Shown piece after piece: positions 12,110-50,800 of a DNA stretch of 58,453 nt. How positions within the stretch are numbered: position 1 is the stretch's first letter; each line of letters starts with the position of its first letter. The notes under the pieces were generated by a model. It searched no databases and was not told where the DNA came from. It saw only the letters and a list, made by a program, of their open reading frames with translations. Made by a program: the position numbers and the translations under genes. The stretch is from an uncultured virus (IMG/VR IMGVR_UViG_3300002835_000037) (taxonomy: Duplodnaviria > Heunggongvirae > Uroviricota > Caudoviricetes), in the IMG/VR virus record IMGVR_UViG_3300002835_000037; one strand, given 5' to 3'.

Positions 12110-12568
12110 TTATTTTTTAAAGTATAAGTTTGCTTCTGCCTCTCTTCTTCTCACAAGACCTTTTAATGTTTTACCTCCAGCTTTAACCCATTTCATAAAT
12201 TCTAATCTGATTGATTCGTCTTCTGGATTAGCATTAACCTTTTTCAATAGGGTTGATGACTTTAGATTCCCCGGGCCTAAATTATAAGCAAATGATACTA
12301 GAGCATCGAACTGATTCTGATTGATATCATCACGGCAATATGAATCTACATATTGCTCAAAACTGACAAGCATACTTTGTAATAGTTCCGTACCGCGTGC
12401 TTCAGTGATTGTAGCATCTGCCATTGTTACTTTTTTACCGCCTGGGTAAAATGTTGCTCCATACCCAATGGTTGGAATACCTGCAGGACATTTGTAAGGA
12501 GTTCCTCTAAATCCTTCAAAAGCTTTAATCATATCAATTCCAGCCGTGCCTGTTTTTGTAATTTTCAT
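12110..12568 (-). CDS. Endolysin, GH24 lysozyme
   Basis: FEG...Y.CPAG.PTIGYG, NQNQFDALVSFAYN.G, GLVRRREAE. Confidence 0.92.
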   Translation of the reverse strand: MKITKTGTAGIDMIKAFEGFRGTPYKCPAGIPTIGYGATFYPGGKKVTMADATITEARGTELLQSMLVSFEQYVDSYCRDDINQNQFDALVSFAYNLGPGNLKSSTLLKKVNANPEDESIRLEFMKWVKAGGKTLKGLVRRREAEANLYFKK

Positions 12569-12574
12569 ATCCTT

Positions 12575-13690
12575 TTATTTTTTTTCTTTACTGCCTTCTT
12601 GCGTAGCATACTTGATACCCATGATTGTGCCGACTATTGAAAAGGCATTTGTTAATAATACACTAAACATATTACTCCATGTTGATCCAATGATTTGAGT
12701 ATCTTGATTTGTTATAATTGCAGCCCAGTATAGTACAGTTGTTATAACCCCTACTCCAACTATAACAGCCAACGCAACTTTGACAATGATTTTAATCAGC
12801 TCACTTTGGCTTTTTTTCATCATTACATCTAAGTCATTCAGAGCTGCATCTTTTTCTATCTCAATTGCATTCTTAAGCTTTTGTGAGTTATCAAGTTCTA
12901 CCTGTAAATTTGTTGTTAAGTCGTCTATTTTCTTCTTATTGTTTACAGCCTCAGTGACATCAGTTGCAATTTTAACTACATCGGTGATGTTTCCTTTACT
13001 GTCCATTACAGGATTATAAGATGCTTGCAAGTAAACAGTAGATCCATCTACTTTTCTTCTTTCAAATATTCCATCAAAGAACTTACCCTTTTTCAGACTT
13101 TCCCAAAACTTAGCATATTCATCAGATTTAGAATACTCGTAGCTAACAAAAACACTGTGGTGTTTACCAATGACTTTACTTTTTTCATTGGTTTTATAAC
13201 CCATAGTTTCTAAGAATATAGAATTAACTTCTGTTATAAAACCCTCAATATTAAAACTAATAAGAGCTGTACTTCTGTTAATGGCATCTATTTGTTTCTT
13301 ACTATTGACAATTGCACTAATGTCAGTAGCAATCTTCATTACTTTGGTGATCTTACCATCCTCATTTAAAATAGGATTATAAGTTGCTTGAAGATTAATA
13401 AGACTTCCATCCTTTCTTCTTCTCTCAAATTCTCCAGTGTAATACTTACCACTTCTTAGGATATCCCAAAACTTCTCATATTCAAGTGATCTTGAGTAAT
13501 CATCACATACAAAGATGCTATGATGTTTACCAATGATATCATCATGGTTGCCTTTACCATAACCCATTGCTTCCAAAAAAATGTCATTGACCCCTAGTAT
13601 AATACCAGCAAGGTCAAAGTAGATAATAGCATTACTTCTATTAATGGCTTCTAGTCTACTTAGTAACTCTTCTTTTGGGAGATTTTTCAC
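12575..13690 (-). CDS. Tandem PAS-PAC domain membrane protein (no MCP or kinase output domain)
   Basis: Two repeats AINRS.A.I.F...IGKHHS.FV...FW..L..G....G.FERR..DGS...LQA.YNP; coiled coil; two C-terminal hydrophobic helices; GTG start. Confidence 0.85.
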   Translation of the reverse strand: MKNLPKEELLSRLEAINRSNAIIYFDLAGIILGVNDIFLEAMGYGKGNHDDIIGKHHSIFVCDDYSRSLEYEKFWDILRSGKYYTGEFERRRKDGSLINLQATYNPILNEDGKITKVMKIATDISAIVNSKKQIDAINRSTALISFNIEGFITEVNSIFLETMGYKTNEKSKVIGKHHSVFVSYEYSKSDEYAKFWESLKKGKFFDGIFERRKVDGSTVYLQASYNPVMDSKGNITDVVKIATDVTEAVNNKKKIDDLTTNLQVELDNSQKLKNAIEIEKDAALNDLDVMMKKSQSELIKIIVKVALAVIVGVGVITTVLYWAAIITNQDTQIIGSTWSNMFSVLLTNAFSIVGTIMGIKYATQEGSKEKK

Positions 13691-14010: not shown

Positions 14011-14250
14011 TTAGGGATTTACAATTTCTTCTTCTTTCTTGTCTTCAACAGTTAACTGTGAAGTTGCTACAATAGTAGCACTTACTGTTGCTAAATAAGT
14101 TGCAGTAGTAATTACTGCAGCTGGTAATGTTACTGGTGCAGCAATAATAATTCCTGCTACAGTTCCTGTAATAATAGCCCATCTTTGGACTCTTTTCCAA
14201 AACTCAGGTGTTTTAGCCTTCCATCTTTCTTTAAGGGTTTTCTCTTTCAT
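14011..14250 (-). CDS. Small two-TM holin-like protein
   Basis: RWKAKTPEFWKRVQ followed by two hydrophobic segments. Confidence 0.65.
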   Translation of the reverse strand: MKEKTLKERWKAKTPEFWKRVQRWAIITGTVAGIIIAAPVTLPAAVITTATYLATVSATIVATSQLTVEDKKEEEIVNP

Positions 14251-14779
14251 CTTTGATTGATTTTATTGGTTCATCTTTTACATACTGAGCTAGATATCTT
14301 AGTAGAGGATTATATTCTGTCCAACCCAGTCTTTTAAAATTTTCTAAATTTGATAAGAAAAGATTTATAATTATATAGTTATAGAATCCATAATGCAGCC
14401 ATTCATAGATATTAAAGGTAACTCCAAACACTGGTTTAATCGGAATATTTTCAGCTAATGCATGTGATACACCAATCATTAACATATATACAAACAATTT
14501 AAACCATCCTTTACCGAAAAGTTCTGAATCAAATTTTAAACCTTCTTTTCTGGAAGCTTTAAGACCTGTATAAAACTCTAATATAAAAAGTAAAAGAATA
14601 CCTATACCAACAGGCAATACAATACCAAAAACAGAATTAAAATAATAAGCAATTCCTGCAAAAAAAGCACTTATAATTGTTATAGTGCTGGAAGCTTCTG
14701 GATGAAATGCACTGTTTATAAAATGTGTTGTATCACTGTATCCTGCAGCAAAAACTAATTTGTTAAGTATTGTTTTCAT
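14231..14779 (-). CDS. Holin (phage holin family 4-like)
   Basis: Several TMs; EFYTGLKAS...S..FGKG..KLFVY...SNLENFKRLG. Confidence 0.75.
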   Translation of the reverse strand: MKTILNKLVFAAGYSDTTHFINSAFHPEASSTITIISAFFAGIAYYFNSVFGIVLPVGIGILLLFILEFYTGLKASRKEGLKFDSELFGKGWFKLFVYMLMIGVSHALAENIPIKPVFGVTFNIYEWLHYGFYNYIIINLFLSNLENFKRLGWTEYNPLLRYLAQYVKDEPIKSIKDERENP

Positions 14780-22374: not shown

Positions 22375-22403
22375 TAGTCCTGAGTAAGACTATAAATTAC
22401 TTT
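22375..22403 (+). ncRNA. Repeated H-type pseudoknot motif, copy 1 (degenerate tail)
   Basis: TAGTC-CTGAGTAA-GACTA-TAAAT-TACTT. Confidence 0.45.
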
Positions 22404-22405
22404 CT

Positions 22406-22539
22406 TTACTGTTAGCAAACAGTGACAAACCTGTGGGGCTACTATTGGGTTCTATATCTCTCCTGCAAAGAGAGTATAGTGCTGACATATCATTTGCAGT
22501 GATATGAATCCAAAGTTAGTGCAGACTCAAAAATCAGGT
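22406..22539 (+). ncRNA. Hatchet self-cleaving ribozyme
   Basis: UUACUGUU/AACAGUGA P1, CAA linker, ACCUG/CAGGU P2, UGGGGCU and UUAGUGCAGAC core strands, A-rich linker; branched P4. Confidence 0.85.
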
Positions 22540-23259: not shown

Positions 23260-24015
23260 AGTAGTAATGCACCATTCCTGTTTCCCAATTCAAATATATT
23301 TAGTATATTTGTATTATGAAGATTTCTATATACACCTTGACAGATCCTAATACTAATAAAATTAGATATGTAGGACAAACAAATGATCCTAAAAGAAGAT
23401 TGAGTAGACATATAAACAACTCAAGAGCTTTTAAGGATAAAAGACATATCAGTAATTGGATAAGAAGTTTAACTTCTGCTCCAATAATGGATATAATTGA
23501 AGTTTGTGAGTATTCAATTAGAAATAGTAGAGAAAACTATTGGATTGATTACTATAAGAATCAAGGTTATGATTTATGCAACTCTTCTAATGGTGGTGCA
23601 GGTGCTGGTATTGGTAATAAGAATTGTTTAGGAAGAATTATGTCTGATAAAACAAAACAGAAAATAGCTAATGCAAACAAGAATAATACCAATGGATTAG
23701 GCAATAAAGGAGGAAAACCTTCAAAAACAATTTATCAATATGATAAAAATAAAATACCTATTGCTGTTTATAAATCAATACAAGATGCTGTTAAAGCTAC
23801 TGGATATAACAGAACAACAATAAGAAGAAATATTCAAAATATTAGTTCAAGTAAATTATTTATTTGGACTGATAAACCTTTGCTCTAACTCATCCAAGGG
23901 TGAGCAGTTGTAATAATATTGTAGTCCAGATTAGTTACAGTTAAGCACATTAGCTGTAATGAGTGGCAGCAACCGGAGCTGGAAACTATTATTACAACTG
24001 AGTGCAGAGGGTACT
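23260..24015 (+). ncRNA. Twister ribozyme interrupted by a GIY-YIG gene
   Basis: 5' AGUA-G-UAA-UGCA-CC (23260-23273); 3' CUCA-UCCAAGGG-UGAG (23889-23904), 14-bp P5, UGCA-GAGGG-UACU (24003-24015). Confidence 0.65.
23316..23888 (+). CDS. GIY-YIG homing endonuclease with NUMOD-type DNA-binding repeats
   Basis: SIYTL...RYVGQT...RRLSRH, E..WI; C-terminal IYQYD...YKSI..A. Confidence 0.85.
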   Translation: MKISIYTLTDPNTNKIRYVGQTNDPKRRLSRHINNSRAFKDKRHISNWIRSLTSAPIMDIIEVCEYSIRNSRENYWIDYYKNQGYDLCNSSNGGAGAGIGNKNCLGRIMSDKTKQKIANANKNNTNGLGNKGGKPSKTIYQYDKNKIPIAVYKSIQDAVKATGYNRTTIRRNIQNISSSKLFIWTDKPLL

Positions 24016-24058: not shown

Positions 24059-24871
24059 ATGAAAATTCATTTACATTCTAAACCAGGGTTATATGAAGTA
24101 GTAACCTATGGTAGAAACAGTATTACTTGTTCTACCAAGCATAGCACATTTCAAGTACCAAGCAGTGATTTTAAATCATTTGCCGGTGGTAGTTGGAACT
24201 TTAGTGTTACCAAAGATCAGATGGATATATTTCTATCTGTTGTTCAACCTGATAAATATAAGATCCAAGTAGAACAAGAAGATCAAATCTTGACATTAGC
24301 TGCTAGATTAGATATCATTCAAGCTGCTGTTAAAGCACAACAAACTGTTGTTGTTGAAGAAGAACCAGAAGCTTATGAAGATGATTATCCTGATGGTAAT
24401 CCACAAGAACCTACCAAAGAAGAATATGAAAAGTGGTGGAGACAAGAATCTGATAAGAATTATGAATTGAACAATAAGATGAGAAATATTGCACGTCAAG
24501 TGTATTCTCAGAATCTTGACTTTACTCATTTTCAGAATCACAAGGGTATTAAATTTATTATACAACAAGATCATTATGATGATAAAATCAACAGATTTTG
24601 TTGGGATCCTTATGGCTTTGTTAGTAATGGTCACAGTGATATCAGTAGTATTTATAGTGAAGGTGATTGGGGTACAATTAATGGTGGTTGGATTAAAATC
24701 ATAGATGATAATGTGATTTTATATGCTAAATCAGGTGATTATGGTGTATATGATGATGCTATTGCCATAGAGTGTGCAAAGAAAATATTTCCTACAAAGA
24801 AAATACATTCATTTGCCGGCAGACAATGGAATGATGAATTAACTTCAAAATTCTCATTGTATTCTTTTTGA
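24059..24871 (+). CDS. Hypothetical protein with a C-terminal Janus/Ocnus (PHPT1)-like domain
   Basis: GIKFII...HSDI...GGWIKI...ILYAKSGDYG...AI...K.IFP. Confidence 0.6.
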   Translation: MKIHLHSKPGLYEVVTYGRNSITCSTKHSTFQVPSSDFKSFAGGSWNFSVTKDQMDIFLSVVQPDKYKIQVEQEDQILTLAARLDIIQAAVKAQQTVVVEEEPEAYEDDYPDGNPQEPTKEEYEKWWRQESDKNYELNNKMRNIARQVYSQNLDFTHFQNHKGIKFIIQQDHYDDKINRFCWDPYGFVSNGHSDISSIYSEGDWGTINGGWIKIIDDNVILYAKSGDYGVYDDAIAIECAKKIFPTKKIHSFAGRQWNDELTSKFSLYSF

Positions 24872-24995: not shown

Positions 24996-25907
24996 ATGAG
25001 AAACTTAAGTAACAATGGCCTTAGCATGTCACAGGCACAAACTATCAGTAACCTATGTAATCAAAGAGCTACTGAGATTCAAAGAGAGTTAGACTCTTAT
25101 AACAACTGTAGTAAGACTATTACTATAGATGGTAAAACACATCTTGTTGTTGAACCAAGTCCTGTTCCGGGAGATTTTTTAACTAAGCTCAAGCTTAAAG
25201 CTTCTTTGCATGCTTGCCAGGCTTTCCTTATGGAAGCTATTAAGTCTAAAGATGCTGAAATCAAAAGAATCAAACATGCTCAAGTAGATATCTCTCATTT
25301 AGAGATACCTAAAAGAGAATACATTGAAGACTTTGATATACTTGATAATGTGGAAGAATCCTGGGGATGGCAACAGCTCACAGATACTGAATACTCTGAG
25401 TATTTAGATGCTGAAGCAATGGCTGCTCACTTAGGTCAATTCATTCATAAGAATGGTGTATTAAGTAACTTAAGAAAAGAGCTTCCGGGGATCCCAACCA
25501 TTGAGTGGTTTGAGGTAGAAACTGGTAAGAAAACACCAGTTATGGTTACCAAACACCACAACTCTAATCAGCTTATGAATATTCATGAGACTATTGCAAA
25601 AGAGCATAAGATCTATGAGCAACGTGTAAATTATTACAAAGCTAAGGTTAAAAACCTGGTAAGTGATGAGAATGCACGTATTCAAAAGTATAATGCTGAT
25701 AGAGCAGCTGAGCAAATAAAGCTTGAACAAGAAGTTGAAGCTAAATATGAAGTTGCACGAAATGCATATACTGGAGAAGTTGTTAGATTAAAGATGGAGT
25801 TCAATGCTAAAAGAGAACAAGACATCAAAGCTACTGCAGCATTAAGAATTAATGTTGATCCTAGATTTCAGCCTGTAATTGACATGTTCAATACACCTGA
25901 AAACTAG
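24996..25907 (+). CDS. Coiled-coil hypothetical protein upstream of a structured RNA
   Basis: 303 aa, helical and E/K/A-rich. Confidence 0.8.
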   Translation: MRNLSNNGLSMSQAQTISNLCNQRATEIQRELDSYNNCSKTITIDGKTHLVVEPSPVPGDFLTKLKLKASLHACQAFLMEAIKSKDAEIKRIKHAQVDISHLEIPKREYIEDFDILDNVEESWGWQQLTDTEYSEYLDAEAMAAHLGQFIHKNGVLSNLRKELPGIPTIEWFEVETGKKTPVMVTKHHNSNQLMNIHETIAKEHKIYEQRVNYYKAKVKNLVSDENARIQKYNADRAAEQIKLEQEVEAKYEVARNAYTGEVVRLKMEFNAKREQDIKATAALRINVDPRFQPVIDMFNTPEN

Positions 25908-26114
25908 TAAACTTATAAGGTTATAATTACACAGAGCGTCTCCTTACTGCCCATAGGATATGGGTGCTGCATAAAAAGCAGGTAGTAAAGTGGGTAATGC
26001 CACAGGATGTCCTGATAGGTATGATGTAATGAATGTTGGTCTTGAGTACAACCAACAGTAACTTTAAATTAGGTGAGTAAGAGATAAGCACAAGCTGATT
26101 CTCTTACTCTTTAT

Positions 26115-26370
26115 ACTTAGTGACAGGAATCACATATAAGCAAATTGATAAATGGTTTTGGTACCATAATACAACAAAATAATTTTAAACCGCTTCTCTT
26201 CAAACTTATAAAAACTGAGATAGAACTCATCCGTTAGACAGGTTATTGTGTTATTGAAACACTATTGGCTAACACATTGAGACTTGGTATTTGTATTTGC
26301 CTTTGTAGAAGAGAAGGTCTTTGAATTTGATTTTGTATTTGACATTAGCTATATATTTCTGTCACTAAGT
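26115..26370 (+). ncRNA. Structured element with a TTTGNN hexamer register
   Basis: 16-bp closing stem, 9-bp inner stem, eight in-register hexamers at 26284-26343. Confidence 0.55.
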
Positions 26371-26519
26371 GACTATTTTACTTGGTCTTACATTTGAACC
26401 TAGTAATATTTTAGATATTGTTTCGGTTAAAGATGTGCCAAACTTTGTGATCTATTCAGATTCAGGAGATATTTAATAAACAGGGAGCGTAACAACTCCC
26501 CTTAAAAACTAAAAAAAAG

Positions 26520-26765
26520 ATGAAAAAAGAACTTAAAGACGATTGGACACCACAAGCGGGGGAGTGGGTGTTGGTTAGCAATGATAATGTTGTTTGGGAT
26601 AAAAGGCTGTTTGTTTGTGTTTGGAAAGACAAATACCGATGCGAGGCACTTGGGAGCACGGACTACATAATAGCTTGGCAACACATCCGCCAAATCAAGC
26701 CCGAAACAATGACCTTGCAAGAAGTGAGAGAGGTGTTGGGTAAACCTAATTTGGTTATTGAGTAG
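26520..26765 (+). CDS. Hypothetical protein directly upstream of the attC-like site
   Basis: 81 aa; visibly GC-richer than neighbours. Confidence 0.65.
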   Translation: MKKELKDDWTPQAGEWVLVSNDNVVWDKRLFVCVWKDKYRCEALGSTDYIIAWQHIRQIKPETMTLQEVREVLGKPNLVIE

Positions 26766-47814: not shown

Positions 47815-50800
47815 ATGAGTCAAGTACAATTAAACGTTGAAGAGTTAAAGGATTTTATTAAGCATATGGTTAAGAATAACCAACACATTCAGTCTGAAGG
47901 AAAAGTTCCTGTGGCAGTGAACATTGAAGGTGATGCTGGGCTTAATTCAAAATAAATGAGTATATTTGTAACATGAAGAAATTAATTTCAGAGTGTTTAC
48001 ACAAAGACTTAAATCAAAAGTGTGGTATTTACAAACTTACTTGTAATGAGCACAGTTATATTGGTAGCAGTATTAATATTTATTATAGGTTGAAAAGACA
48101 TATATCAGATTTGCTAAAAAATAAGCATGCAAATAAGTATATGCAAAATGCTTTTAATAAATATGGAAAGGATAGTTTTATATTTGAAGTAATAGAAGAA
48201 TGTAATAGAGATGTGTTAATTAAAACAGAATCCTATTATATAGAATCTATGTCTCCGGACTTAAACTTTATTCAAAATCCTGTTGCAATGATCCACAGTA
48301 ATGAAACATTACTTAGGATTTCTGCAACATTAAAAGAAGCTTATGCTTCTAAAAGAATAAAAAATCCTATTTCTAAAACTGTTCATCAATATAATATAAA
48401 TGGTTTTTATCTTAAATCTTATGAATCCTGTGCTGAAGCAGAAAAACAATTGAACTTACCAAAAGGAAAAGTTTCAAGAGTAGCTTCAGGAAAAGGATTT
48501 TCTTGTAAAAACTATAGATGGAGTTATGAATTAAAAAATAAACTTGGAGAATCTGTTATTAAACCAGATACAACAAAAAAAGTTTATGTATATGATGAGA
48601 ACAACAACTTAGTTCAAGAATGGCAAAGAGTGGGTAATGTAGCTAGTAATCTAGGTATTAGCTCATCTGCAATGTCTACAAGAATTAAAAAAGGTAATTA
48701 CTATGATGGTTTAAGATATTCATTTAACCCAGGTCCAGGGTAAAAATTGGGTGAATTGCTGGGAGTTCCTAAAGCTTTGTTAGCTACAACATAACCGGAA
48801 ATGGTAAGTGTGAATGCTTGAAAATAACAAAGATGTCCTAATGGATAATCAGCAGCCAAGTCTAGATCTAAATGGTCTGGAAAGGTTCAACGACTAGGTA
48901 TTGAAACTATGTAAATAGAATATAATATACCCAAGAGTGCCCAACACCAAGTAATTGGTGAAGATATAGTCTGAACTATAGTGAAAGCTATAGAAACAAG
49001 GATAAAGAGCCTTGTGATAACAAAATGTGGAAAAACAAGTGCAATTATGCAGTTGGGTAAAGAATTGCAAATGGATGTTGTAAAGTTGAATTTATCTCAA
49101 CTTGAAGAATTAGGTGACTTAGTTGGGTTTCCTGTAAAAGAATTTCAGATACAAAATGCAGAAGGTAAAACTACCTGGATTAATGAATCTCAGATATCTG
49201 CAGCTAGTGCGAAAGGTTATAAGGTTGTTGGAAAAAGAATGTCACATGCTGCTCCTGAATGGATTCAGGGTAAAGGTGAAGGTGGTTTCTTAATCTTAGA
49301 TGACTATACTCGTGCGGATTAACAAAATATGCAGTCTAGTAGTGTTAGTGTGAATAATTTAATTATCTTTGTGATATGGAAAAATTAAACACACAAACTC
49401 TTAAGACCGCATTAAAGAGTATAGGAATCTATAAAATTAAAATTAATGATAAAGAGTACATTGGTAGCTCTTGTAATATTGGTCAAAGATTAAAACATCA
49501 TTTATGGTCTCTTGAAAATTTAAAACACCATAATAGAACAATGCAGAATTTATACAACAAGTATAGTAAAGAAGAAATTTACTTTGAAGTTGTAGAAGAG
49601 TGTTCAGATGAAGTTTTAATTGAGAGAGAAGCTTATTATATTAGCACACTTAATCCATATATAAATCATATACTAGATCCACAAACTCTAGTCAGGGATG
49701 ATGTATGTAAACAAAGGATAAGTGATACTAAGAAAAAAGCTTATGCAAATGGTCTAAAACCTCACAATCTTAAAGCAGTACATAAATATTCACTTGATAA
49801 AGGTGAGTATTTAGAAAGTTTTGATTCTCTTACAGCTGCTGCTAAATCTATTAATGCTAAAAGTATTAATAGTATAAAAGCAGTATGTAATAGTAAGCAA
49901 ACTTCTGCAGGAGGTTATGTTTGGTCTTATAATAAAGTTAATCTAGTTTTTTCTAGAGATAAAAAATATAAGTTAGAACCAGTGTTACAATTTACTATTG
50001 ATAATATTTTTATCAAAAAATGGGAGTCTATAACTGAAGCAAGTAAAGAACTTGGTATCTCTAATATTAATAGAGCAATATCTAGAAATTTAACTGCTGG
50101 GGGTTATAGATGGTCTAAAAAGCATAAAGTGTTTGGTCCGCAATAAATCATGTGAATTCAGGGAAACTCCAGAGATGGACAATCCTGAGCCAAGCCTTAT
50201 AGGGATATAAGGAAGGTGCAACGACTAGTGTATGGAGTCTAGAACAGACAGTAAAACACCAAGAGCGCATGACACATAGAAATATGTGATGATATAGTCT
50301 GAACTGTACATATAATCTAAATGAAAGTACAGAATCTAAGGATAAAGAGCCTTAGAGTTAACAAAATGCAACGCTTTATGCAAGCAACAATGGAGATCCT
50401 AGACAGACAAGAATATGTTTCTTGGAAGTTACCAAAGAACTGGCATGTACTTTTGACTACTAATCCAGACAATGGTGATTACAATGTAACTTCTCTGGAT
50501 GTAGCTCAGAAGACTAGATTTATCTCTGTAGAGTTAAAGTATGATTCTGATGTATGGGCTAAGTGGGCAGAGAAAGCAAGTATTGATGGTAGATGTATTA
50601 ACTTTATGTTGATGCATCCAGAATTGGTAACTCAAAGAGTTAATCCAAGATCTATCACTACATTCTTTAATGCAATTAGTTCTATTCCAAAGTTTGAAGA
50701 TAACTTACCTTTAATTCAAATGATTGGTGAGGGATCTGTTGGACCTGATTTTAGTTCTATGTTTACTATGTTCATTAATAACAAACTTGATAGAATTATT

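What the first reader, a model, noticed from the sequence alone, without database searches (positions are those of the whole stretch)
24996..26370. Coiled-coil gene followed by a ~255-nt structured element with a strict 6-nt TTTGNN register
Seen: a 16-bp stem (26115-26130/26355-26370) closes a domain with a 9-bp stem CTTCTCTTC/GAAGAGAAG. The 3' side reads TTGGTA TTTGTA TTTGCC TTTGTA gaagag aaggtc TTTGAA TTTGAT TTTGTA TTTGAC. The 12-nt interruption keeps the register and is the pairing strand. Read from TTG 26284 it gives LVFVFAFVEEKVFEFDFVFDISY..., an alternating-Phe beta-strand peptide. More hairpins fill 25936-26109. Inference: an uncharacterised protein + ncRNA module, either an array of binding sites (sponge/scaffold) or a structure-gated amphipathic micropeptide.
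Basis: partly seen in the sequence, partly recalled or inferred. Interest (0 to 1): 0.8.

Follow-up and report, generated by a model that had tools for sequence, protein, structure and literature searches.

The report
New phage RNA with partner protein
Just after an unknown 303-residue protein gene, this crAss-like phage and hundreds of other large environmental phages carry a conserved, folded ~300-base non-coding RNA with two strictly spaced rows of U-U-G motifs; it matches no catalogued RNA family.

Summary
Window 26072-26374 (+) is a ~303-nt structured RNA. G-U far outnumbers A-C in the pairs (239:18), which points to the + strand as RNA.

The 6-nt TTTGNN register holds without a single indel in 47/47 close and 51/51 distant relatives. 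The register across the 12-nt interruption holds only in 37/47 and 28/51.

The peptide reading fails: 9/47 keep a start codon and 10/47 carry a frameshift to a stop.

The protein-RNA link held wherever it could be tested:
- From the RNA side, 80 of 82 loci have the protein upstream.
- From the protein side, 78 of 80 loci have the RNA downstream.
- The four misses are three loci cut off by a contig end and one chance match.

In other phages the pair sits inside arrays of 21-29 tRNA genes. No Rfam, Pfam, PHROG, NCBIfam or PDB match was found for either part.

Hairpins at 25905-26066 are a separate inserted element.

Best reading: a new phage RNA-protein module whose single-stranded UUG arrays act as a multivalent binding platform. 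Its function is unknown.

The parts
24996..25907 (+). p303: 303-aa protein of unknown family, the obligate upstream neighbour of the RNA
   Evidence: ORF. No Pfam or PHROG hit. 1858 clusters of relatives, all named 'hypothetical' or unnamed. AF2 model pLDDT 84.9 with no fold match beyond its own family. Predicted homodimer.
25905..26066 (+). about 160-nt insertion between the p303 stop codon and the RNA; a separate small structured element, not part of the RNA family
   Evidence: Absent from 29 relatives. An RNA-library contig joins 25903 to 26067. The same ~150 nt occur in 11 viral contigs, in several different flanking contexts among the 10 aligned.
26072..26374 (+). whole structured RNA element (P0 to P0')
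   Evidence: Conserved at 70-82% nt identity, starting about 10 nt after the homologue's stop codon. Alignments A2 and A4 with pair counts.
26072..26074 (+). P0 5' strand (GGT), pairs with 26372-26374 (ACT); closes a three-way junction with P1 and P2
   Evidence: 47 of 47 sequences paired but invariant, so no covariation. In the wider family, 88.2% of the helix's cells are paired (32+2, 50 and 51 of 51 for its three pairs).
26075..26109 (+). P1 hairpin (10 bp) with internal loop and 3-bp tip helix P1b (26087-26089 / 26094-26096) closed by a 4-nt loop
   Evidence: 7 of 10 pairs changed on both sides in A2 and 10 of 10 in A4.
26114..26130 (+).
   Evidence: 12 of 17 pairs changed on both sides. 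Family-wide duplex energy with the own partner is -21.9 +/- 2.4 kcal/mol, against -7.4 +/- 3.7 with a distant member's partner.
26131..26192 (+). variable region with lineage-specific hairpin(s)
   Evidence: Poorly alignable; differing hairpins are visible in A1, A2 and A4.
26193..26201 (+).
   Evidence: 100% paired in A2, with 5 of 9 pairs changed on both sides. 7 of 9 in A4.
26210..26229 (+). A-rich strand. P6 (26210-26219 with 26283-26292), the 6-nt internal loop ATAGAA (26220-26225), and P6b (26226-26229 with 26278-26281)
   Evidence: Consistent partners in the base-pair probabilities of 51 sequences (about 0.43). 84-94% paired but nearly invariant, so covariation is inconclusive. This core differs in the most distant members.
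26233..26273 (+). P7-P8-P9 long hairpin with a conserved A-G mismatch (26238/26268) and a variable tip
   Evidence: 98% paired. 3 of 9 (A2) and 6 of 9 (A4) pairs changed on both sides. The A-G is present in 51 of 51.
26283..26307 (+). hexamer array 1: four slots with G at 26287, 26293, 26299 and 26305. The first two slots take part in P6, the last two lie in an internal loop
   Evidence: Slot spacing is 6 nt in 47 of 47 and 51 of 51 sequences.
26308..26316 (+).
26317..26354 (+). hexamer array 2: slots with G at 26323, 26329, 26335 and 26341, then a degenerate fifth slot (TTTAGC), then conserved CTATAT. This is the junction strand between P5 and P2
   Evidence: Slot spacing is 6 nt in 47 of 47 and 51 of 51. 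No consistent pairing partner (each 0.17 or less).
26355..26374 (+). P2 3' strand (26355-26371) and P0 3' strand (26372-26374)

Best explanation
Window 26072-26374 encodes a ~303-nt structured non-coding RNA on the + strand. It is genetically locked to the gene just upstream, p303 (24996-25907).

SHOWN HERE:
- The fold. P0, P1 and P2 form a closing three-way junction. Inside it, P5 encloses a P6/P6b/P7-P9 domain.
- The strand.
- The absence of a conserved reading frame.
- Two arrays (4 + 5 slots) of YUUG at an invariant 6-nt period. The second array and half of the first have no conserved pairing partner.
- Linkage to p303 in every testable locus, across phages whose p303 proteins are only 43-71% identical to the window's (alignment A5).

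INFERRED:
(a) The RNA is made as the 3' extension of the p303 transcript. It would end at an intrinsic terminator or an abutting tRNA gene.
(b) The helices act as a scaffold that displays the two single-stranded UUG arrays as a multivalent platform, with one hexamer bound per protein subunit or domain.
(c) The ligand is p303 itself, predicted to be a symmetric homodimer with one protomer per array, giving a phage ribonucleoprotein.
(d) The frequent position inside tRNA arrays and next to RNA-repair genes suggests a role in tRNA or RNA metabolism, or in counter-defence, during infection.

My odds:
- Real functional ncRNA coupled to p303: about 0.9.
- Arrays are a protein-binding platform: about 0.6.
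- The ligand is p303: about 0.35-0.4.
For: STRUCTURE
- A2 (47 distinct close relatives): 96.8% of 2959 cells paired, against 36.5-47.5% when the 3' partners are slid.
- 31 of 64 pairs changed on both sides, against 4-9 in the slid controls.
- 0 of 500 shuffles reached the observed value for four of the five measures.
- A4 (51 members under 90% identical): 90.4% paired against 32-53%, and 27 of 47 pairs against 10-14.
- P2 covaries as a whole helix.

STRAND
- G-U to A-C cells are 239:18 in A2 and 183:58 in A4.

NOT CODING
-.

REGISTER
- Every consecutive slot is 6 nt apart in 47 of 47 and 51 of 51 sequences, while hexamer positions 5-6 vary.
- The arrays, P1, P2 and P5 persist even in the most distant members, where the central core differs.

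LINKAGE
- 60 of 61 motif-bearing contigs have p303 upstream; the other has only 27 nt of upstream sequence.
- 80 of 82 core-bearing loci have it. The misses are one truncated locus and one chance hit.
- 78 of 80 loci found through the protein alone carry the RNA downstream. The two misses have 6 and 41 nt of downstream sequence. 17 of the 78 lack the 14-mer used in the RNA scans.

TRANSCRIPT
- The gap between the stop codon and P0 is about 5-20 nt.
- 21 of 67 distinct downstream sequences have a terminator-like hairpin within 140 nt, most of them 5-21 nt after the end.
- tRNA or tRNA-like genes abut the 3' end in L221, L222, L226 and L244.
- RNA-library contigs cover the element in 4 of the 4 runs laid. 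One contig bridges the p303 3' end and the start of the element.

DIMER
- ipSAE 0.57 against a best control of 0.18.
- That mark was reached by 20 of 30 proteins solved as pairs of one chain, and by 1 of 23 solved as single chains.
- The runs share at least 98% of contacts, and the partner's pLDDT is at least 87.

CONTEXT
- In 3 of 4 large contigs examined, the module sits within arrays of 21-29 same-strand tRNA genes.
- 35 of 60 loci have a tRNA gene within 1.6 kb.
- Neighbours include RNA ligase, HAD_SAK_2, a phosphoesterase, YqeY and a cyclic-phosphate receiver domain.
Against: - No binding was tested, and the tools cannot model protein with RNA.
- p303 is mildly acidic (median pI 5.9, median net charge -6 over 33 members). 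It matches no known RNA-binding domain.
- Many of its invariant residues lie in the predicted dimer interface, so their conservation need not reflect RNA contact.
- Its invariant His, Glu and Cys residues could equally mark an enzyme.
- The array motif is kept across a wide range of phage contigs (9.6 to 364 kb). That would fit a conserved host ligand just as well.
- The RNA libraries were read as contigs and may contain DNA, so transcription, RNA ends and abundance are not shown.
- P6 and P6b are nearly invariant and so unproven by covariation.
- The invariance of the 14-mer core in A4 follows from how those loci were found.
- One of the five shuffle measures on A2, 'further standard pair types', did not exceed the shuffles (485 of 500 reached it).
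Confidence: 0.5

Rival explanations
1. Host-protein sponge or decoy. The RNA displays eight or nine single-stranded U-rich hexamers that titrate an abundant host single-strand RNA-binding protein. Cold-shock-domain proteins are the best candidate; ribosomal protein S1 or an Hfq-like protein are others. p303 would be a helper or a functionally related but separate product.
For: - The most conserved block of array 2, GGT[C/T]TTTG, contains in most members the heptamer reported as the preferred site of Bacillus subtilis CspB, 5'-GTCTTTG/T-3' (abstract of PMC1904285, seen; block conservation).
- A cold-shock domain covers about 6-7 nt (my own knowledge, not from a call). That fits a 6-nt period.
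- The motif is kept in phage contigs of 9.6 to 364 kb, as expected if the ligand is a highly conserved host protein.
- p303 is acidic.
- No cold-shock or RRM gene was seen among 93 window ORFs, so such a ligand would have to come from the host.
Against: - This does not explain why p303 is always the upstream gene.
- It does not explain why such an elaborate scaffold is conserved (P1 loop, the A-G pair, the ATAGAA loop).
- Only one slot carries the full heptamer.
- No binding data exist, and the hosts are unknown.
Confidence: 0.2
2. RNA-only ornate RNA, in the manner of ROOL and GOLLD. The RNA works through its own tertiary or quaternary structure. The U-rich periodic strands would be structural (base triples, long-range or inter-molecular contacts). 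p303 would share the operon because it acts in the same pathway or acts on the RNA, for example by processing, modifying or chaperoning it.
For: - Same niche as ROOL and GOLLD, which are described as encoded in phages and prophages, often near tRNA islands (passages of PMC12286853 read; context).
- The sequence is very highly conserved in loops and junctions, which is typical of RNAs with tertiary structure.
- The invariant His, Glu and Cys residues of p303 suggest an enzyme rather than a coat protein.
Against: - No Rfam family, including those two, matches at E <= 1-10.
- The RNA is less than half their size.
- A strict 6-nt period with two free positions per unit is what repeated recognition by a protein would produce. 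It is not a known RNA tertiary motif (my judgement).
Confidence: 0.15
3. Cis-acting 3' UTR element of the p303 mRNA, such as an autoregulatory operator, a stability or termination element, or a processing signal. It would have no function in trans.
For: It starts about 5-20 nt after the stop codon and is often followed by a terminator. One RNA-library contig spans the gene's end and the start of the element.
Against: - About 300 nt with seven or more conserved helices and invariant loops is far more than known 3' stabilisers or operators need.
- Against the window, the element is about 80% identical at nucleotide level in contigs whose p303 is about 68% identical at protein level.
- In 11 of 82 loci, 300-900 nt, in some cases with another ORF, separate the gene from the RNA without loss of the RNA. 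In the window a 160-nt insertion does the same.
Confidence: 0.1
4. One reading: translation from TTG 26284 gives an alternating-Phe beta-strand peptide whose start is gated by the structure.
For: The frame is open for 32 or more codons in the window and in the 34 of 47 close relatives that show no stop in the stretch translated.
Against: - A TTG, GTG or ATG start is present in only 9 of 47 sequences.
- 10 of 47 carry a 1-nt insertion that gives TGA after 8 codons.
- In the window a TGA lies two codons upstream of the TTG.
- Variation falls on codon positions 2 and 3 alike.
- The longest stop-free stretches lie on different strands and in different frames in close relatives.
Confidence: 0.01
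5. DNA-level element: a replication origin, iterons or a promoter array built from TTTG boxes.
For: - TTTG resembles the -33 box of Bacteroidota promoters (my own knowledge, not from a call).
- The element lies about 5 kb from the strand-switch and GC-skew minimum near 20-21 kb.
Against: - G-U outnumbers A-C by 239:18 in the pairs, a strand asymmetry that duplex DNA does not need.
- Long-range helices covary.
- A 6-bp period does not match the DNA helical repeat.
- The element is present in RNA-library contigs.
- The sigma-70-type promoter scan found fewer sites than in the shuffles (5 against 8.4).
Confidence: 0.02

Closest known systems
ROOL and GOLLD large ornate RNAs of phages and prophages
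   Same: Phage-encoded, highly structured, function unknown, often beside tRNA islands (passages of PMC12286853). Here the module lies inside 21-29-tRNA arrays in 3 of 4 large contigs examined, and 35 of 60 loci have a tRNA within 1.6 kb.
   Different: - No match to any Rfam 15 model.
- About 300 nt, against about 580 nt for ROOL (recalled) and more than 800 nt for many GOLLD members.
- An obligate upstream protein gene.
- Periodic single-stranded hexamer arrays.
OLE RNA with its Oap partner proteins
   Same: A large conserved ncRNA whose partner-protein gene lies next to it, forming an RNP (my own knowledge; OLE is described as an RNP in the title and abstract of PMC12054373, listed).
   Different: OLE is a chromosomal RNA of Bacillota extremophiles, about 600 nt, with membrane-protein partners. 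There is no sequence or model match. Here the protein is soluble, helical, and of no known family.
TRAP bound to the trp leader (periodic triplet array wrapped around an oligomer)
   Same: It works in a similar way on paper: short conserved triplets separated by 2-3 free nucleotides, read one per subunit (my own knowledge). Here (Y)UUG recurs at exactly 6 nt, with positions 5-6 free.
   Different: - The triplet is UUG, not GAG or UAG.
- There are two short arrays of 4-5 slots, not 11.
- No TRAP-family protein was found among 93 window ORFs.
- p303 is a predicted dimer, not an 11-mer ring.
CsrB/RsmZ-type protein-sponge RNAs
   Same: One RNA carries many copies of a short motif and sequesters a dimeric RNA-binding protein (my own knowledge).
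   Different: Their motifs (GGA) sit in hairpin loops at irregular spacing. Here the motifs are in single strands at a fixed period, and the RNA has a large conserved scaffold.
Cold-shock protein binding site (Bs-CspB consensus 5'-GTCTTTG/T-3')
   Same: The heptamer occurs in the best-conserved slot of array 2 (abstract of PMC1904285).
   Different: The consensus was derived on single-stranded DNA for one Bacillus protein. Nothing here shows binding.
omega-RNA or guide RNA modules of IscB/TnpB
   Same: A structured RNA of about 200-300 nt encoded directly beside its protein's gene (my own knowledge).
   Different: p303 shows no nuclease domain (RuvC or HNH) in Pfam. No transposon ends or guide segment are evident, and the locus sits at a fixed position in phage genomes.

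Membership tests
ROOL / GOLLD (and any other Rfam 15 family) | Match to the family's covariance model at or above the gathering score | tested here: not met
   - Whole window at gathering score: only two group I introns and a Hatchet ribozyme, all elsewhere.
- 25800-26600 at E <= 10: only one chance-level lncRNA match outside the element.
- 12 and 11 divergent loci: only tRNAs and sub-threshold chance hits.
ROOL / GOLLD | Phage or prophage location, often near tRNA islands | tested here: met
   The feature is as worded in PMC12286853.
ROOL / GOLLD | RNA-only homo-oligomeric assembly | not testable with these tools
   No RNA 3D or oligomer prediction is available.
Small ORF / micropeptide gene | Conserved start codon and reading frame, with mostly synonymous variation | tested here: not met
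   Start codon in 9 of 47 sequences, frameshift to a stop in 10 of 47. No common frame.
tRNA / tmRNA | Detected by ARAGORN or the Rfam tRNA and tmRNA models | tested here: not met
   No tRNA or tmRNA in the window. No Rfam hit on the element.
TRAP-type periodic binding array | Short conserved triplets at a regular 5-6-nt period in single-stranded RNA | tested here: met
   Slots are 6 nt apart in 51 of 51 sequences. Array 2 has no conserved pairing partner.
TRAP-type periodic binding array | A TRAP-family oligomeric protein as the ligand | tested here: not met
   No such Pfam family among 93 window ORFs or in p303. Only 58 kb of the genome was seen.
Cold-shock-domain binding sites | Presence of the published preferred heptamer | tested here: met
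   GGTCTTTG in the window. In A4 the slot reads G, then T 51/51, T 51/51, T 49/51, G 50/51, with C the majority letter before the T run. Consensus taken from the abstract of PMC1904285.
Cold-shock-domain binding sites | Binding by a cold-shock protein | not testable with these tools
   Needs an EMSA or CLIP experiment.
Intrinsic terminator only | A short GC-rich hairpin plus a T run explains the structure | tested here: not met
   The only hit inside the element (26361-26373) is a 5-bp alternative to P2. It is broken in relatives that keep P2 (read from A1). True terminators lie downstream of the element in other lineages.

The most novel reading that the evidence does not exclude
The p303 dimer and this RNA form a previously unknown phage ribonucleoprotein machine that acts on the translation apparatus. 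It could be a tRNA-directed processing or protection particle, or a decoy that disarms host tRNA-cleaving or RNA-sensing defences. The two UUG arrays would be the protein-assembly track, and the conserved central domain (the ATAGAA loop, the A-G pair) would be the active or recognition site. On this reading it would be a new class of RNP that large phages carry together with their own tRNA sets and RNA-repair enzymes.
Probability: 0.15. Interest if true: 0.92.

Novelty: new variant of a known kind. Interest (0 to 1): 0.82.

Why it matters
Large, conserved structured RNAs of unknown function are rare, and past examples have led to new biochemistry. This one has four features that make it worth pursuing:

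- **Widespread in environmental phages.** 223 contigs encode the protein. There are 1858 protein clusters at 90% identity.
- **Uncatalogued.** It is absent from Rfam, and the protein is absent from 50,697 deposited phage genomes.
- **A built-in handle.** An obligate partner protein and a very regular motif array make the question directly testable by gel shift, cryo-EM or slot mutagenesis.
- **An informative location.** It lies within phage tRNA arrays and next to RNA-repair genes. This ties it to the open question of why large phages carry their own translation-related RNA toolkits.

Tried and rejected
- **DNA search of deposited phages** (blastn 'distant'): no match. The tblastn search with p303 also found none, so no cultured or deposited carrier is known from that collection.
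- **Own assembly**: not held.
- **Fold searches with the p303 model.** Foldseek against PDB found nothing at E <= 0.001. VIA-align wide gave a best Z of 7.3, all generic helical bundles below the tool's stated noise level for helical proteins. BFVD returned only an uncharacterised relative.
- **Profile searches with p303.** Against PDB sequences, the best E-value was 0.086. Against NCBIfam there were only scattered coiled-coil noise hits. The ESM Atlas gave only unnamed clusters with scores of 0.81 or less.
- **Prokaryotic genomes** (185,579 species representatives). Two pattern hits. One is a chance match inside an ORF. The other is a MAG contig that also carries p303. There is therefore no sign of a cellular or prophage reservoir at that stringency.
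- **The 3' local hairpin** (26361-26373, flagged as terminator-like). Rejected in favour of P2 because relatives break it and keep P2.
- **A partner strand for array 2.** None was found that is consistent across 51 sequences. Lineage-specific short pairings between the CTATAT region and the variable region were seen by eye but not established.
- **My first family-wide register count by regular expression** (last two lines). It parsed only 16 of 47 and 21 of 51 sequences and was replaced by the column-based count.
- **Metatranscriptome cover.** Parts of the stretch without contigs, and contig depths, were not used as evidence.
- **Literature searches** (passages). None turned up a description of this RNA or protein. 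One search failed on a term format and was not repeated. These searches cover only the open-access library held, so absence from print is not proven.
Full report
**1. What the window is**

The 58-kb window is AT-rich phage DNA. On the - strand, 1-20 kb holds:
- a major capsid protein that matches Pfam Crass_capsid
- portal, terminase and lysis genes

On the + strand, from about 20.7 kb, lie replication genes. It is therefore a crAss-like phage. Related IMG/VR contigs reach 103-123 kb.

Rfam finds a Hatchet ribozyme (22402-22539) and two group I introns (48701-48993, 50086-50315). It finds nothing at the finding's coordinates, even at E <= 10. ARAGORN finds no tRNA.

**2. The observation**

- The outer stem is 26114-26130 with 26355-26371.
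- The inner stem is 26193-26201 with 26308-26316.
- 26105-26380 folds better than all 200 shuffles (z = -3.82).
- In 26283-26354, 7 of 8 TTG share one 6-nt register. None of 5000 dinucleotide-preserving shuffles exceeded 5.

**3. Relatives and the true extent of the element**

A protein-seeded scan gave 34 viral loci. The window's intergenic region was compared with them by blastn.
- The whole region matches only the two near-identical contigs.
- The part corresponding to about 26067-26383 matches 29 further loci at 70-82% identity. One of these (L024) is cut short at 65 nt, and the weakest (L032) matches in two short pieces.
- In those loci the match begins about 10 nt after the homologue's stop codon.

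So 25905-26066 is an insertion specific to the window's clade. The conserved element is 26072-26374.

**4. Structure**

RNAalifold on 22 sequences predicted 50 pairs, 24 of them with compensatory changes.

I then wrote a structure by hand: P0, P1/P1b, P2, P5, P6, P6b, P7, P8. I counted it on two alignments.

| Measure | A2: 47 distinct close relatives | A4: 51 members <90% identical |
|---|---|---|
| Cells paired | 96.8% | 90.4% |
| Cells paired, partners slid 1-3 columns | 36.5-47.5% | 32-53% |
| Pairs changed on both sides | 31 of 64 | 27 of 47 |
| Same, slid controls | 4-9 | 10-14 |
| Shuffles reaching the observed value | 0 of 500 for four of five measures | 0 of 500 for all five |

On A2, the fifth measure, 'further pair types', did not exceed the shuffles (485 of 500).

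How well each helix is supported:
- P1, P2, P5 and P7-P8 carry the covariation.
- P0, P6 and P6b are almost invariant. They rest on thermodynamic consistency only (about 0.43 mean pairing probability to the same partner columns in 51 sequences).
- P2 could not be aligned across subfamilies, but it covaries as a whole helix. Each RNA's own 5' and 3' strands give -21.9 +/- 2.4 kcal/mol. A 5' strand combined with a distant member's 3' strand gives -7.4 +/- 3.7 (51 own pairs, 496 crossed pairs).

An A-G opposition inside P7-P8 is present in 51 of 51 sequences.

G-U cells outnumber A-C cells 239:18 (A2) and 183:58 (A4). The folded strand is therefore the + strand, the same strand as the genes around it.

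**5. The hexamer register**

Counted by alignment column, the G of each slot falls at nine positions:
- window 26287, 26293, 26299, 26305
- then 26323, 26329, 26335, 26341
- then a degenerate ninth slot

Every consecutive pair of slots within an array is exactly 6 nt apart, in 47 of 47 and 51 of 51 sequences. Positions 5 and 6 of the hexamer vary freely.

Across the P5 3' strand, the distance is 18 nt in 37 of 47 and 28 of 51 sequences, and 19 nt in the rest. There are thus two separately phased arrays, not one continuous register.

Pairing status of the slots:
- The first two slots of array 1 are the 3' strand of P6.
- The other two slots lie in an internal loop.
- Array 2 is the junction strand between P5 and P2 and has no consistent partner.

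**6. Not coding**

- Only 9 of 47 sequences have TTG at the start. The others have TTA, TTC, TTT, TGA, TGT or TAT.
- 10 of 47 have a 1-nt insertion that gives TGA after eight codons.

Long stop-free stretches exist (median 57 codons). They lie on different strands and frames even in close relatives. They reflect the lack of stop codons in the complement of the repeats.

**7. Linkage to p303**

From the RNA side:
- A degenerate motif spanning array 1, P5 and array 2 hit 61 viral contigs. 60 have a p303 homologue directly upstream on the same strand. The 61st has only 27 nt of upstream sequence.
- Of the 80 loci fetched from that scan plus 2 genome hits, 80 have a p303-like ORF upstream (231-606 bits). 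The two exceptions are a truncated locus and a chance match inside an ORF.

From the protein side:
- A scan with the family alignment found 223 contigs that encode a relative.
- Of the best 80, 78 carry the RNA downstream by nhmmer. The other two have 6 and 41 nt of downstream sequence.
- 17 of the 78 lack the 14-mer and are therefore independent of the RNA-seeded scans.

No testable locus has one partner without the other.

In 11 of the 82 loci, 300-900 nt separate the gene and the RNA.

**8. A caution on 'invariant' nucleotides**

The 14-mer core is invariant in A4 because A4 was retrieved with it. In the protein-retrieved distant members, the central domain differs or is reduced. What persists everywhere:
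- P1 with its loop
- P2 and P5
- both hexamer arrays
- the CTATAT block

The arrays are thus among the most deeply conserved features.

**9. Context and transcript**

- In three of four large contigs examined, the pair lies inside same-strand arrays of 21, 25 and 29 tRNA genes.
- 35 of 60 loci have a tRNA gene within 1.6 kb. This includes a tRNA-Arg(TCT) downstream in many crAss-like relatives, though not in the window.
- Neighbours in those contigs include two RNA ligases, a HAD_SAK_2 fragment, phosphoesterases, YqeY, a cyclic-phosphate receiver domain and Tad3.
- A terminator-like hairpin follows the element within 140 nt in 21 of 67 distinct downstream sequences, mostly 5-21 nt after P0.
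- In L221, L222, L226 and L244 a tRNA or tRNA-like gene abuts the 3' end.
- All four RNA-library runs that I laid (coded X1, X2, X4, X9; recorded as three freshwater and one riverine metatranscriptome) hold contigs on the element.
- One 182-nt contig matches the end of p303, skips the window's insertion and continues into P1.
- Many contigs match only the conserved core, with unlike flanks, as expected for relatives.
- These are contigs from libraries that may contain DNA. They show presence only, not transcription, RNA ends or abundance.

**10. The protein**

The p303 family is uniform in length (299-309 aa in 29 members). It has many invariant residues, including six His, several Glu and Gln, and a Cys.

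The AF2 model (pLDDT 84.9) shows two helix / beta-hairpin / long-helix units followed by long helices.

No sequence or fold relative with a known function was found. No homologue was found in 50,697 deposited phage genomes.

Two copies are predicted to form a symmetric dimer:
- ipSAE is 0.57, against a best control of 0.18.
- That mark was reached by 20 of 30 proteins solved as pairs of one chain and by 1 of 23 solved as single chains.
- The runs share at least 98% of contacts, and the partner's pLDDT is at least 87.

The protein is mildly acidic (median pI 5.9).

**11. Interpretation**

Shown:
- a conserved + strand RNA fold
- two strictly periodic, largely unpaired UUG arrays
- no coding frame
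- obligate adjacency to p303

Inferred:
- co-transcription with p303
- the arrays acting as a multivalent protein-binding platform
- the p303 dimer as the ligand, one protomer per array

The main rivals:
- **A host ligand.** A cold-shock-domain protein is attractive because the best-conserved slot contains the published CspB heptamer (abstract of PMC1904285).
- **An RNA-only role**, like ROOL or GOLLD, which share the phage and tRNA-island niche (passages of PMC12286853).
- **A purely cis-acting 3' UTR element.**

The micropeptide reading and DNA-level readings are rejected.

**12. Novelty**

The kind of thing is known: a large structured phage RNA of unknown function near tRNA genes. This RNA matches none of the 4227 Rfam families. 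Its partner protein matches no family in any of the libraries searched. The combination of an obligate partner gene with two phased hexamer arrays has no described counterpart that I could find (searches, limited to the open-access library held).

Noticed in passing
window 25905-26066: A ~150-160-nt structured insert lies between the p303 stop codon and the RNA (fold z = -3.25). About 150 nt of it recur nearly unchanged (most columns identical in the alignment) in 11 viral contigs, in several different flanking contexts. It also appears in metatranscriptome contigs with unlike flanks. A close relative lacking it exists (joint 25903 to 26067). No Rfam hit at E <= 10. It looks like a small mobile structured element.
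   Followed up: partly
window 22402-22539 (+): A Hatchet ribozyme (Rfam RF02678, 77.7 bits) lies about 780 nt upstream of a GIY-YIG/NUMOD1 homing endonuclease gene (23316-23888). That gene is present only in the window's own clade (2 of 34 loci).
   Followed up: no
window 48701-48993 and 50086-50315 (+): Two group I introns (84.6 and 77.9 bits), each just after a GIY-YIG/NUMOD1 endonuclease ORF (47973-48743, 49376-50146). The host gene they interrupt was not worked out.
   Followed up: no
window 24059-24871 (+): A 270-aa protein with no Pfam or PHROG match lies directly upstream of p303. It is conserved in that position in 20 of 34 crAss-like loci. It was not seen next to p303 in the tRNA-array phages.
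   Followed up: partly
L222:1765-1853, L226:1797-1867 (also L221:1782-1849, L244:1599-1702): tRNA or tRNA-like genes start within a few nucleotides of the RNA's 3' end. Two of them have odd anticodon loops by ARAGORN (4-nt and 2-nt 'anticodons'). RNase P cleavage there could define the RNA's 3' end.
   Followed up: no
L219, L224, L227, L228, L237, L254 and others: Many crAss-like relatives carry a tRNA-Arg(TCT) 0.4-1.5 kb downstream of the RNA on the same strand. ARAGORN finds no tRNA anywhere in the 58-kb window.
   Followed up: no
window 12575-13690 (-): A 371-aa protein with tandem PAS domains sits inside the lysis and structural module, next to a lysozyme (12110-12568) and a holin (14231-14779). 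A sensor-type domain is unusual in that position.
   Followed up: no
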